Below, piece after piece: positions 46,399 through 48,045 of a stretch of 64,000 nt of DNA. The notes beneath the pieces are model-generated. The model ran no database searches and was not told where the DNA came from. It was given only the letters and a program-made list of their open reading frames with translations. The DNA is taken from the NCBI RefSeq assembly GCF_009914755.1, contig NC_060931.1; one strand, 5' to 3'. How positions within the stretch are numbered: the first letter of the stretch is position 1; each line of letters opens with the position of its first letter. The position numbers and the translations under genes are program-made. The DNA comes from the human T2T-CHM13v2.0 reference genome, Homo sapiens.

Positions 46399-46812
46399 TA
46401 CACTATTCTTATTATTGAAGAATCATCAATGGAATTTTCTCTCTTCTGCAAAACGAGTGAAAATATTAGCTATTTCTAATCAACATAAAAATTAATCAAA
46501 ATGGCATAACATTGAAATCTTCAAGGACAGAGGCTCTCTGGGTGCATACCATAATCAAGAATCATGCTATTTATTTATTTATCATGCTTAGTCCTCACAG
46601 CAGCCCAGAGAATTGGGTATTATCATCTCCACATTAGAGATGAAGGTAAAGCTCACAAAAATACCTACAGTTAAAATGGGTAAGAGTGGTGAGTTAAACA
46701 ACATCTCCCTGACTTCCAATTCCTCATATTAGATCAGCTCCCCGCTTAGTGTCTGGTACCAGCAGTCTCACATTGAATGTCTGCTAATGAAAACATTAAA
46801 AACAACAACAAC

Positions 46813-47653
46813 AAAACACCAAAAGCAATGGCAACAAAAGACAAAATTGACAAATGGGATCTAATTAAACTAAAAAGCTTCTGCACAGCAAAAGAAACTA
46901 CCATCAGAGTCAACAGGCAACCTACAAAATGGGAGAAAATTTTTGCAACCTACTCATCTGACAAAGGGCTAATATCCAGAATCTACAATGAACTCAAACA
47001 AATTTACAAGAAAAAAACAAACAACCCCATCAAAAAGTGGGCGAAGGATATGAACAGACACTTCTCAAAGGAAGACATTTATGCAGCCAAAAGACACATG
47101 AAAAAAATGCTCATCATCACTGGCCATCAGAGAAATGCAAATCAAAACCACAATGAGATACCATCTCACACCAGGTAGAATGGCAATCATTAAAAAGTCA
47201 GGAAACAACAGGTGCTGGAGAGGATGTGGAGAAATAGGAACACTTTTACACTGTTGGTGGGACTGTAAACTAGTTCAACCATTGTGGAAGTCAGTGTGGC
47301 CACTCCTCAGGGATCTAGAACTAGAAATACCATTTGACCCAGCCATCCCATTACTGGGTATATACCCAAAGGACTATAAATCATGCTGCTATAAAGACAC
47401 ATGCACACGTATGTTTATTGCGGCATTATTCACAATAGCAAAGACTTGGAACCAACCCAAATGTCCAACAATGATAGACTGGATTAAGAAAATGTGGCAC
47501 ATATACACCATGGAATACTATGTGGCCATAAAAAATGATGAGTTCATGTCCTTTGTAGGGACATGGATGAAACTGGAAATCATCATTCTCAGTAAACTAT
47601 CGCAAGGACAAAAAACCAAACACCGCATGTTCTCACTCATAGGTGGGAACTGA
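46813..47653 (+). pseudogene. Disrupted L1 ORF2 C-terminal fragment (includes the Cys-rich CCHC region)
   Basis: The reading frame is split across ORFs 46777-47178 and 47135-47653. An extra A in the run at 47101-47107 is the apparent frameshift. EN and RT domains are absent. Confidence 0.85.
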
Positions 47654-47872
47654 ACAATGAGAACACATGGACACAGGAAGGGGAACATCACACTCTGGGG
47701 ACTGTTGTGGGGTGGGGGGAGGGGGGAGGGATAGCATTAGGAGATATACCTAATGCTAAATGACAAGTTAATGGGTGCAGCACACCAGCATGGCACATGT
47801 ATACATATGTAACTAACCTGCACATTGTGCACATGTACCCTAAAACTTAAAGTATAATAATAATAAAAAAAA
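46813..47872 (+). mobile_element. 5'-truncated L1PA3-type LINE-1 (ORF2 3' end + 3' UTR)
   Basis: ORF2p C-terminal peptides ([23 protein letters not shown]...; [18 protein letters not shown]); 3' UTR diagnostics gcattaggagat, gctaaatgac, gttaatggg, cacattgtg, cttaaagtat; first A-tail ends at 47872. Confidence 0.95.
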
Positions 47873-47968
47873 CTTCTTTATTTTGAAGAACATTCATAGA
47901 ATTTGCTTAAAAATTAAATTCATTTAATAAAATGTTAAATTTTTATAGCAAAAAAATAAAAATAAAAA
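47873..47968 (+). other. L1 3'-transduced segment (77 bp) plus second A-rich tail
   Basis: Non-L1 sequence 47873-47949 has AATAAA at 47926-47931, followed by an A-tail from 47950 and the 3' TSD copy at 47970-47987. Confidence 0.85.
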
Positions 47969-48045
47969 TAAAAACAGCAACAACAAAGTAAACCAATACT
48001 ACATCACCAATGAGTATGTGTGCTTTGTAAAGAAAGCCTAAGCTT

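What the first reader, a model, noticed from the sequence alone, without database searches (positions are those of the whole stretch)
46798..47987. L1PA3 insertion carrying a 77-bp 3' transduction with its own poly(A) signal
Seen in sequence, in order: an endonuclease-type site catt|aaaaac; TSD copy 1 AAAAACAACAACAACAAA (46798-46815); about 1.06 kb of truncated L1; the first A-tail, ending 47872; 77 bp of non-L1 sequence (47873-47949) with AATAAA at 47926-47931, 18 nt before a second A-tail; then TSD copy 2 AAAAACAGCAACAACAAA (47970-47987, one mismatch). No TSD copy follows the first tail. Established knowledge: L1 transcripts can read through their weak poly(A) signal and mobilise downstream flank (3' transduction). 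Inference: the 77 bp come from another locus and act as a barcode for the source L1PA3 and its sibling insertions. Repeat annotation would leave this segment looking like unique DNA.
Basis: partly seen in the sequence, partly recalled or inferred. Interest (0 to 1): 0.8.

Follow-up and report, generated by a model that had tools for sequence, protein, structure and literature searches.

The report
L1 copy carrying chr8 flank
A truncated L1 retrotransposon in a DOCK4 intron dragged about 80 bases of chromosome 8 along when it was copied, an ordinary and well-known L1 side effect, though the parent L1 is no longer at the chromosome 8 site in this genome.

Summary
Between two 18-base target-site duplications (17 of 18 identical) lie 1,057 bases of L1 3' end, an 8-A run, 77 non-L1 bases with AATAAA 18 nt before a second A-rich tail.

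The L1 part encodes ORF2p residues 998-1275.

The 77 bases have exactly one other copy in this genome, at C8:63537735-63537811 on the + strand, 76 of 77 identical. Counting shared A's, homology is 81 of 82. It stops exactly where the chr7 tail begins. At that point chr8 reads AATAAA, 18 nt, CA, then a GT-rich stretch.

So the segment is foreign and was polyadenylated at the chr8 signal. A 3' transduction is the best reading (about 0.85).

The expected source L1 is not at the donor. No young L1 lies within 10 kb either side. The chr8 junction reads TT|AAAA, an L1 endonuclease site, so it looks like the empty allele of a lost source L1.

No sibling carries the tag. The L1PA3 label and the ape empty sites could not be tested here.

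This is a known kind of event and of low interest.

The parts
46796..46801 (+). L1 endonuclease target site TT|AAAA (bottom strand 5'-TTTTT/AA-3')
   Evidence: Read directly...aaaacatt|aaaaac...
46798..46815 (+). Target-site duplication, copy 1 (AAAAACAACAACAACAAA). The last 3 bases may be L1/target microhomology.
   Evidence: 28 of 29 related L1 copies have AAA before ACACC.
46816..47653 (+). 5'-truncated L1, ORF2 C-terminal part (ORF2p residues 998-1275). The reading frame shifts once near 47100; the stop codon is included.
   Evidence: two overlapping frames, 46777-47178 and 47102-47653; residues 998-1095, E 2e-58; residues 1093-1275, E 5.4e-121, against solved human LINE-1 ORF2p chains.
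47654..47864 (+). L1 3' UTR, ending ...agtataataataat
   Evidence: 39 scored non-self genomic copies align across the query to positions 1052-1057 at 97-98%; the same 3' end appears in the relatives.
47865..47872 (+). First (internal) A run, 8 A. Up to 4 of these A's may be the start of the source locus's 3' TSD (chr8 reads aaaa here).
47873..47949 (+). Transduced non-L1 segment, copied from C8:63537735-63537811. With shared A's the homology spans window 47869-47950.
   Evidence: 99% over 77 of 77, E 5.5e-30; 81 of 82; the 36-mer core has 2 copies genome-wide at up to 3 mismatches.
47926..47931 (+). AATAAA poly(A) signal of the transduced segment, 18 nt before the tail. An ATTAAA lies 13 nt upstream of it.
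   Evidence: ATTAAA at +45 and AATAAA at +58 of the donor.
47950..47969 (+). Second (terminal) A-rich tail, aaaaaaataaaaataaaaat. Its limit with TSD copy 2 is ambiguous by up to 5 A's.
   Evidence: On chr8 the sequence diverges here to acgcatgttttatt.
47970..47987 (+). Target-site duplication, copy 2 (AAAAACAGCAACAACAAA), 17 of 18 identical to copy 1

Best explanation
This is one L1 retrotransposition event with a 3' transduction.

Proposed sequence of events:
1. A source L1 once sat in + orientation on chromosome 8, inserted at the TT|AAAA site at about C8:63537730/31.
2. Its transcript ran past the L1's own weak poly(A) signal into the flank.
3. The transcript was cleaved and polyadenylated about 81 nt downstream, at AATAAA, 18 nt, CA, followed by a GT-rich stretch.
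4. The L1 machinery nicked chr7 at TTTTT/AA and primed on the new poly(A) tail.
5. It copied the 77-81-nt chr8 flank, the source's short A run and the last 1,049 bases of L1, then stopped (5' truncation inside ORF2).
6. This left 15-18-base target-site duplications.

Shown here: the anatomy, the L1 identity, the chr8 origin of the segment, the poly(A)-site limit of the homology, and the absence of an L1 at the donor in this assembly.

Inferred: that a source L1 was ever at the donor. On this reading the chr8 sequence seen here is the empty allele, and the filled allele was lost by drift, or less likely excised.

The insertion is old and inert. It is an ORF2 fragment with a frame shift inside a DOCK4 intron.
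For: 1. Anatomy. In order: TSD, L1 3' end, 8 A, 77 non-L1 bases with AATAAA 18 nt before a 20-nt A-rich tail, TSD. The target is TT|AAAA. No TSD follows the first A run.

2. TSD significance. The 18-mer occurs 2 times in 64 kb, with 0 in 100 shuffles.

3. L1 identity.
- ORF2p residues 998-1095 (E 2e-58) and 1093-1275 (E 5.4e-121).
- 3,891 genomic candidates; the 39 scored non-self copies are 97-98% identical.

4. Foreign origin. The 77 bases match C8:63537735-63537811 on the same strand at 76 of 77, or 81 of 82 with shared A's. The 36-mer core has exactly 2 copies genome-wide at up to 3 mismatches, and the reversed control has 0.

5. Direction of copying. On chr8 the segment is embedded in unique sequence with no tail. 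Homology ends at tatagCA, and chr8 continues cgcatgttttatt. That is a complete poly(A) site: signal, CA cleavage site, GT-rich downstream element. The chr7 copy has A's from that point on.

6. Donor junction. It reads agcctt|aaaa|cttc, which is TT|AAAA in the same orientation as the chr7 target. [quoted passage not shown] An L1 inserted at this chr8 site would give exactly the observed L1-A(n)-AAAACTTC... junction. A random 5' end would produce such a TT|AAAA limit at 217 of 20,057 positions (1.1%) of the 20-kb donor region.

7. The short internal A run is not unusual for this age class. Several of the 29 relatives have equally short tails.

8. Transduction is common. About 25% of L1 insertions carry one, according to the abstract of PMC13009371 (search listing only).
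Against: 1. No L1 lies at the donor junction, and no young L1 within 10 kb on either side in this assembly. The only L1-like hit is a 392-base, 70%-identical fragment on the opposite strand about 5.3 kb upstream. The source element is therefore inferred, not seen.

2. No other insertion carries the tag, so there is no sibling to corroborate an active source at chr8.

3. The TT|AAAA argument is weaker locally. Within 200 nt upstream of the poly(A) site, 16 of 195 random 5' ends (8%) would give the same limit. The figures are 16 of 495 within 500 nt and 26 of 995 within 1 kb.

4. The internal A run leaves at most about 4 A's for the source's own tail once the 4 shared A's are counted. That is short for a young active L1, although A runs shrink with time.

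5. Orthologous empty or filled sites in other primates could not be examined.
Confidence: 0.85

Rival explanations
1. Template-switch chimera made in one retrotransposition event. Reverse transcription was primed on a short polyadenylated chr8 RNA. After about 80 nt the enzyme jumped to the A tail of an L1 RNA and copied its last 1 kb. No source L1 ever sat on chr8.
For: The structure is indistinguishable from a transduction: two RNA-derived parts in the same orientation, a short A run at the joint, one terminal tail and one pair of TSDs. It explains directly why the donor has no L1. Chimeric retrocopies formed by L1 reverse-transcriptase template switching are described in the literature (recalled; no paper was read here).
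Against: It needs a germline + strand transcript of a region that shows no sign of being a gene end. The nearest + strand coding matches found on C8 are 366 kb upstream (NKAIN exon) and 74.6 kb downstream (YTH exon); untranslated and non-coding RNAs were not assessable. It also needs the first template to end, or be left, exactly at a TT|AAAA site, which has 1.1-8% chance depending on the span allowed. The jump must land on the last few A's of the L1 RNA.
Confidence: 0.06
2. Two separate events. First an ordinary L1 insertion with a normal A tail. Later a severely 5'-truncated retrocopy of a chr8 transcript's 3' end inserted into that A tail. Its own TSDs are hidden because they consist of A's.
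For: L1 and Alu A tails are good endonuclease targets, and A-only TSDs would be invisible (inference). The 8-A run before and the 20-nt A-rich stretch after the 77 bases could be the two halves of one former tail plus a new tail.
Against: It needs two rare coincidences: a non-repeat retrocopy of only about 80 nt, landing in one particular tail in the same orientation. It has the same need for a chr8 transcript and the same TT|AAAA coincidence as the first rival. Transduction explains the same anatomy with one frequent event (passages; abstract).
Confidence: 0.06
3. The 77 bases are native chr7 flank. The L1 ends at the first A run, and the 18-mer match is a low-complexity coincidence.
For: The TSD is an (AAC)n-like low-complexity sequence, and the first A run is a possible L1 end.
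Against: The 77 bases have a 76-of-77 twin on chr8. Its homology starts at the L1 A run and ends at the base where the chr7 A-rich tail starts, 18 nt after AATAAA. Native flank gives no reason for those limits. The 18-mer pair is found 2 times in 64 kb against 0 in 100 shuffles and sits exactly at the two ends of the unit. No TSD follows the first A run.
Confidence: 0.02

Closest known systems
L1 3' transduction (read-through of the L1 poly(A) signal). Primary papers by Moran 1999, Goodier 2000 and Pickeral 2000 were seen only as references. The mechanism is described in PMC4859970 (passages) and in PMC9311842 (passages).
   Same: Two A stretches, a downstream poly(A) signal used instead of the L1's own, TSDs around the whole unit, an endonuclease-type target, and a transduced part that starts where the source's 3' TSD would start.
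   Different: The donor locus in this assembly has no L1, so the parent-offspring pair cannot be shown. Only one offspring carries the tag.
Transductions whose source element is not in the reference. Examples are non-reference progenitors in PMC9311842 (passages). [quoted passage not shown]
   Same: The tag maps to a place where the assembly shows no L1.
   Different: Those cases are recent polymorphic L1HS sources that exist in other people. Here the insertion is millions of years old by its divergence, so the filled allele is probably extinct rather than merely missing from the reference. This insertion is also not an 'orphan', because it retains 1 kb of L1.
Genome-wide transduction catalogue of T2T-CHM13 (Hoyt et al., bioRxiv 10.1101/2021.07.12.451456; passages)
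   Same: Same assembly and same kind of event, detected there with a modified TSDfinder. They report 183 highest-confidence L1 3' transductions, with lower-confidence bins in their Table S13.
   Different: I could not see their tables because preprint supplements are closed. Whether this locus is listed is therefore unknown. A parent without a transposable element may have put it in a lower bin or left it out.
Chimeric retrocopies formed by L1 reverse-transcriptase template switching (recalled from the literature; no paper read here)
   Same: Two unrelated RNA-derived parts joined head to tail, with common TSDs and one terminal tail.
   Different: In the classical examples as I recall them, the L1 or Alu part is the 3' part. 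Here the L1 is the 5' part and ends at its natural 3' end plus A's, as read-through predicts.

Membership tests
L1 3' transduction | An L1 reaching its natural 3' end, followed by a first A stretch | tested here: met
   ORF2p residues 998-1275 plus 3' UTR. The end ...agtataataataat plus 8 A is the same end seen in the 29 relatives.
L1 3' transduction | Non-L1 sequence after the first A stretch, ending in a second A tail 10-30 nt after a poly(A) signal | tested here: met
   77 bases, AATAAA at 47926-47931, 18 nt, then a 20-nt A-rich tail.
L1 3' transduction | TSDs flank the L1 plus the extra segment together; none follows the first A stretch; the target is of endonuclease type | tested here: met
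   17 of 18 identical 18-mers at 46798-46815 and 47970-47987. These are the only 2 matches in 64 kb, with 0 in 100 shuffles. Target is TT|AAAA.
L1 3' transduction | The extra segment is a copy of a single locus elsewhere, and homology ends at that locus's poly(A) site | tested here: met
   C8:63537735-63537811, 76 of 77; 81 of 82 with shared A's; only 2 copies genome-wide. Chr8 continues with a CA cleavage site and a GT-rich stretch.
L1 3' transduction | At the donor locus the segment lies directly 3' of a source L1 in the same orientation | tested here: not met
   There is no L1 at the junction. Within 10 kb on either side the only L1-like match is a 392-base, 70% fragment on the opposite strand. 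The junction is TT|AAAA, compatible with an empty allele. Not met in this one haploid assembly; other genomes were not testable.
L1 3' transduction | Orthologous pre-insertion site in an outgroup lacks both the L1 and the extra segment | not testable with these tools
   No primate genome other than the window's own is held.
L1PA3 subfamily | Subfamily-diagnostic positions (Dfam/RepeatMasker models) | not testable with these tools
   No repeat library is held. Pfam gave 0 families for both ORF2 pieces.
L1PA3 subfamily | Divergence typical of the subfamily's age | tested here: inconclusive
   18 substitutions (1.7%) against the column majority of the 29 nearest relatives; their median is 18 and range 12-22. 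Five substitutions and 1 indel are private. Pairwise identity is 97.0-97.7%. Against recalled ages this fits L1PA2-L1PA3. The sample is biased towards close, little-diverged copies.
Template-switch chimeric retrocopy | The 3' part derives from an independent cellular transcript, not from L1 flank | tested here: inconclusive
   No L1 at the donor favours it. The TT|AAAA junction argues against it, but only at 1.1-8% chance. No transcript annotation for chr8 was available.

The most novel reading that the evidence does not exclude
The 77-82-base tag is the only surviving trace of an extinct 'hot' L1 allele.

On this reading an active L1 sat at C8:63537730/31 in an ancestral hominid population. 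It fired at least once into what is now DOCK4 intron sequence. It was then lost, so the empty allele is what this genome carries.

Mined genome-wide, tags whose donor is an empty endonuclease site would count lost progenitors. That would measure directly how short-lived active L1 source alleles are.
Probability: 0.7. Interest if true: 0.3.

Novelty: new member of a known kind. Interest (0 to 1): 0.2.

Why it matters
For this locus it matters little. The insertion is an old, broken L1 fragment in a DOCK4 intron, and 3' transduction has been textbook L1 biology since about 2000.

Two small points of value:
- About 80 bases that repeat masking leaves looking unique on chr7 are in fact a retro-copied paralogue of chr8 sequence. 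This can mislead mapping, probe design or conservation analysis.
- The donor is an empty endonuclease site. This example shows how tags can record source L1 alleles that never reached fixation.

Tried and rejected
**Dead ends**
- Pfam scan of the two ORF2 pieces gave 0 families. L1 identity was established through solved ORF2p structures instead.
- Szak 2003 and Pickeral 2000 are not held. What I say of them, and of Goodier 2000, Moran 1999 and the chimeric-retrocopy papers, is recalled or seen only in reference lists.

**Search for siblings**
- Among the 29 nearest L1 relatives, the rarer variants of this copy are shared by different relatives, not by one set. Column 495 is shared by L007 and L021; 497 by L009 and L029; 718 by L006, L018 and L022; 844 by L009, L020, L026 and L027. 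No sibling was identified.
- Only 40 of 3,891 candidates were scored, so siblings without the tag may exist.

**Search for a filled copy of the donor elsewhere**
- The 121 bases upstream of the chr8 junction match in full only at chr8.
- The other 39 scored matches (of 264 candidates) cover only the first 52-75 bases, which are the 3' end of an Alu.

**Gene context of the donor**
- NKAIN-family exon matches on C8 end at 63171301.
- The YTH-domain exon match is at 63612425-63612826.
- Peptidase_C26 gave no match anywhere in the genome.
- So the donor is not inside or next to a detected coding exon. Untranslated regions and non-coding RNAs could not be assessed.

**Considered and rejected**
- A spliced read-through from a distant upstream L1. 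The L1 part ends at its natural 3' end plus A's, there is no acceptor AG at the chr8 junction, and no young L1 lies within 10 kb.
- chr7 as donor and chr8 as copy. The chr8 copy has no tail and no TSD, while the chr7 copy has both.

Full report

Yes. Reading 46600-48200 gives these features in order:
- Target site ...aaaacatt|aaaaac.
- The 18-mer AAAAACAACAACAACAAA at 46798-46815.
- L1-like sequence from 46816 that ends ...agtataataataat followed by 8 A's (47865-47872).
- 77 bases that are not L1 (47873-47949), with AATAAA at 47926-47931 and 18 further bases.
- A 20-base A-rich stretch (47950-47969).
- AAAAACAGCAACAACAAA at 47970-47987.
- Then gtaaacc...

The 18-mer (one degenerate position, up to one more mismatch) occurs at only these two places in the 64-kb window. 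It occurred in none of 100 dinucleotide-preserving shuffles. The repeat finder returns the same pair at a spacing of 1,172.

No TSD-like sequence follows the first A run.

One refinement concerns the TSD length. All 29 related L1 copies I fetched continue upstream into L1. In 28 of 29 the three bases before ACACCAAAAGC are AAA. The last three bases of TSD copy 1 may therefore be junction microhomology, making the TSD 15-18 bases.

**2. Is it L1?**

Pfam gave nothing for the two reading-frame pieces. Against solved structures the result is clear:
- 46816-47178 aligns to residues 998-1095 of human LINE-1 ORF2 protein (E 2e-58).
- 47102-47653 aligns to residues 1093-1275, the C-terminus (E 5.4e-121).

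The frame shifts once near 47100, so the copy is broken as well as 5'-truncated.

The genome search found 3,891 candidates. The 40 best were scored, and the 39 that are not the window itself are 97-98% identical over essentially the full 1,057 bases.

**3. Where do the 77 bases come from?**

The window's own genome holds exactly one other copy, at C8:63537735-63537811 on the same strand, 76 of 77 identical (2 candidates, 2 scored). A pattern search with the 36-base core and up to three mismatches again found 2 forward, 0 reverse and 0 for the reversed control.

A local BLASTN compared window 46700-48100 with 23 kb around the chr8 copy:
- The homology is 82 bases, 81 identical (window 47869-47950).
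- It includes four A's before the 77 bases and one A after them.
- The other hits are Alu matches to the Alu that starts at about window 48042, one 25-base match, and one 392-base, 70%-identical L1 fragment on the opposite strand about 5.3 kb upstream.

**4. Which locus is the donor?**

On chr8 the segment sits in unique sequence with no tail and no flanking repeat.

Downstream, homology stops at tatagCA. Chr8 continues cgcatgttttattaat, whereas chr7 continues with A's. Chr8 thus shows a complete poly(A) site: ATTAAA and AATAAA (at +45 and +58 from the junction), a CA 18 nt after the AATAAA, and a GT-rich stretch just beyond. The chr7 copy is what polyadenylation of a chr8 transcript at that site would give. 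Chr8 is the donor and chr7 the copy.

**5. The unexpected part**

It does not.
- Upstream of the junction, chr8 has 65 bases of unique sequence and then an Alu.
- There is no young L1 within 10 kb on either side.
- The 121 bases upstream of the junction match in full only at chr8. The other 39 scored hits (of 264 candidates) cover only the Alu part. So no 'filled' duplicate exists elsewhere.

The junction itself reads agcctt|aaaa|cttc. This is TT|AAAA, the L1 endonuclease site, in the same orientation as the chr7 target.

[quoted passage not shown] An L1 inserted at this chr8 site would yield exactly L1-A(n)-AAAACTTC..., as seen on chr7.

I tested how often a random 5' end, extended leftwards through A's as the comparison forces, would give a TT|AAAA limit:

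| Span considered | Positions giving TT\|AAAA |
|---|---|
| 20-kb donor region | 217 of 20,057 (1.1%) |
| Last 200 nt before the poly(A) site | 16 of 195 (8%) |
| Last 500 nt | 16 of 495 |
| Last 1 kb | 26 of 995 |
| Last 3 kb | 49 of 2,995 |

The motif therefore supports a former L1 at the site, but only moderately.

**6. Best explanation**

A single retrotransposition with a 3' transduction from a source L1 that once occupied the chr8 site and is absent from this assembly. Most simply, the filled allele never reached fixation and the empty allele is what survives.

- Shown: anatomy, L1 identity, chr8 origin, poly(A)-site boundary, absence of the source here.
- Inferred: the former presence of the source.

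I put this at about 0.85.

The short internal A run is at most about 4 A's beyond the shared AAAA, which is a mild oddity. Several of the 29 relatives have equally short tails.

**7. Rivals**

- *Template switch.* Reverse transcription primed on a short polyadenylated chr8 RNA, then jumped to the A tail of an L1 RNA.
- *Nested retrocopy.* A second, later retrocopy of about 80 nt landed in the L1's tail.

Both reproduce the anatomy and explain the missing source. Both also need a + strand germline transcript of this chr8 region and treat the TT|AAAA junction as coincidence.

The only context I could get is this. The donor lies 366 kb after the last NKAIN-family exon match and 74.6 kb before the YTH-domain exon match on C8. 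It is therefore not at a detected coding exon, but untranslated and non-coding transcripts were not assessable. Each rival gets about 0.06.

It is practically excluded by the chr8 twin, whose limits coincide with the L1 A run and the second tail (about 0.02).

**8. Age and subfamily**

Comparison with the column majority of the 29 nearest relatives:
- The copy has 18 substitutions in about 1,049 bases (1.7%). The relatives have a median of 18, range 12-22.
- Nine of these substitutions are shared by 8-14 relatives, which marks them as lineage variants.
- Four are shared by 2-4 relatives.
- Five substitutions, plus one indel, are shared by none.

Pairwise identity to the relatives is 97.0-97.7%. 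The tag differs from its donor at 1 of 82 positions and the TSDs differ at 1 of 18.

At a recalled neutral rate of about 1e-9 per site per year, 5-9 private changes suggest very roughly 5-9 million years, with wide Poisson limits. That fits a young L1PA of about L1PA2-L1PA3 age (subfamily ages recalled from Khan et al. 2006, which I did not read here).

The label L1PA3 could not be verified because no repeat library is held. The sample of relatives is biased towards close, little-diverged copies.

No sibling emerged. The rarer variants are shared by different relatives rather than by one set.

**9. Comparison with what is known**

This is a standard L1 3' transduction.
- The mechanism and hallmarks are described in PMC4859970 (passages) and PMC9311842 (passages).
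- About 25% of insertions are said to carry a transduction, in the abstract of PMC13009371 (search listing only).
- The same assembly has been screened genome-wide with a modified TSDfinder. That screen reports 183 highest-confidence L1 3' transductions plus lower-confidence bins (Hoyt et al. preprint, passages).
- I made no search aimed at this particular locus in print beyond. None of them showed it.

Sources missing from the reference are also known for recent human insertions (passages; references).

The one defining feature not met is a source L1 at the donor. That lowers certainty about the mechanism a little but does not point to a new mechanism.

**10. Verdict**

However, the tag leads to an empty site rather than to a source L1, and to no siblings.

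It is a new member of a known kind and of low interest (0.2).

The boldest reading still open is that the tag is the sole fossil of an extinct active L1 allele on chr8 (probability about 0.7, modest interest).

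Noticed in passing
L007 (G000:C11:87208971-87213027) and L024 (G000:C3:8606349-8610402), 3' flanks of the L1 copies: Two of the 29 nearest L1 relatives show 20-40 bases of non-L1 sequence after the L1 tail, followed by a second long A run. L007 reads ...aagaaaagaaatccacacttgcac(a)11 and L024 reads ...aaaattaaaattccaccagt(a)17. 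They may be further short 3' transductions.
   Followed up: no
PDB chain 9d2f_J, residues 291-353: A solved chain named 'Cilia- and flagella-associated protein 61' matches the L1 ORF2p C-terminal piece of this window at E 1.2e-09 over 63 residues. That deposited sequence appears to contain an L1-derived stretch.
   Followed up: no
window 47095-47110: The L1 ORF2 reading frame shifts once here. The two frames 46777-47178 and 47102-47653 overlap, and both align to ORF2p around residues 1093-1095.
   Followed up: partly
window 48042-48343 and the RefSeq enhancer 48143-48778: An Alu starts 55 bases after TSD copy 2 (ggctgggtgcggcggctagcacctgtaatccc...; Alu-type hits). The hub's RefSeq 'enhancer' 48143-48778 begins inside it.
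   Followed up: no
L003:4339-4728 (G000:C8, about 5.3 kb upstream of the donor), minus strand: An old L1 ORF2 fragment, 392 bases at 70% identity to the window's L1. It is the only L1-like sequence within 10 kb of the donor. It is too diverged and on the wrong strand to be the source.
   Followed up: partly
L002:1139-1436 and L002:1628-1790 (G000:C8): The donor segment lies between two Alu copies. The upstream one ends in an (AAAT)n tail 65 bases before the junction. The downstream one starts about 50 bases after the poly(A) site.
   Followed up: no
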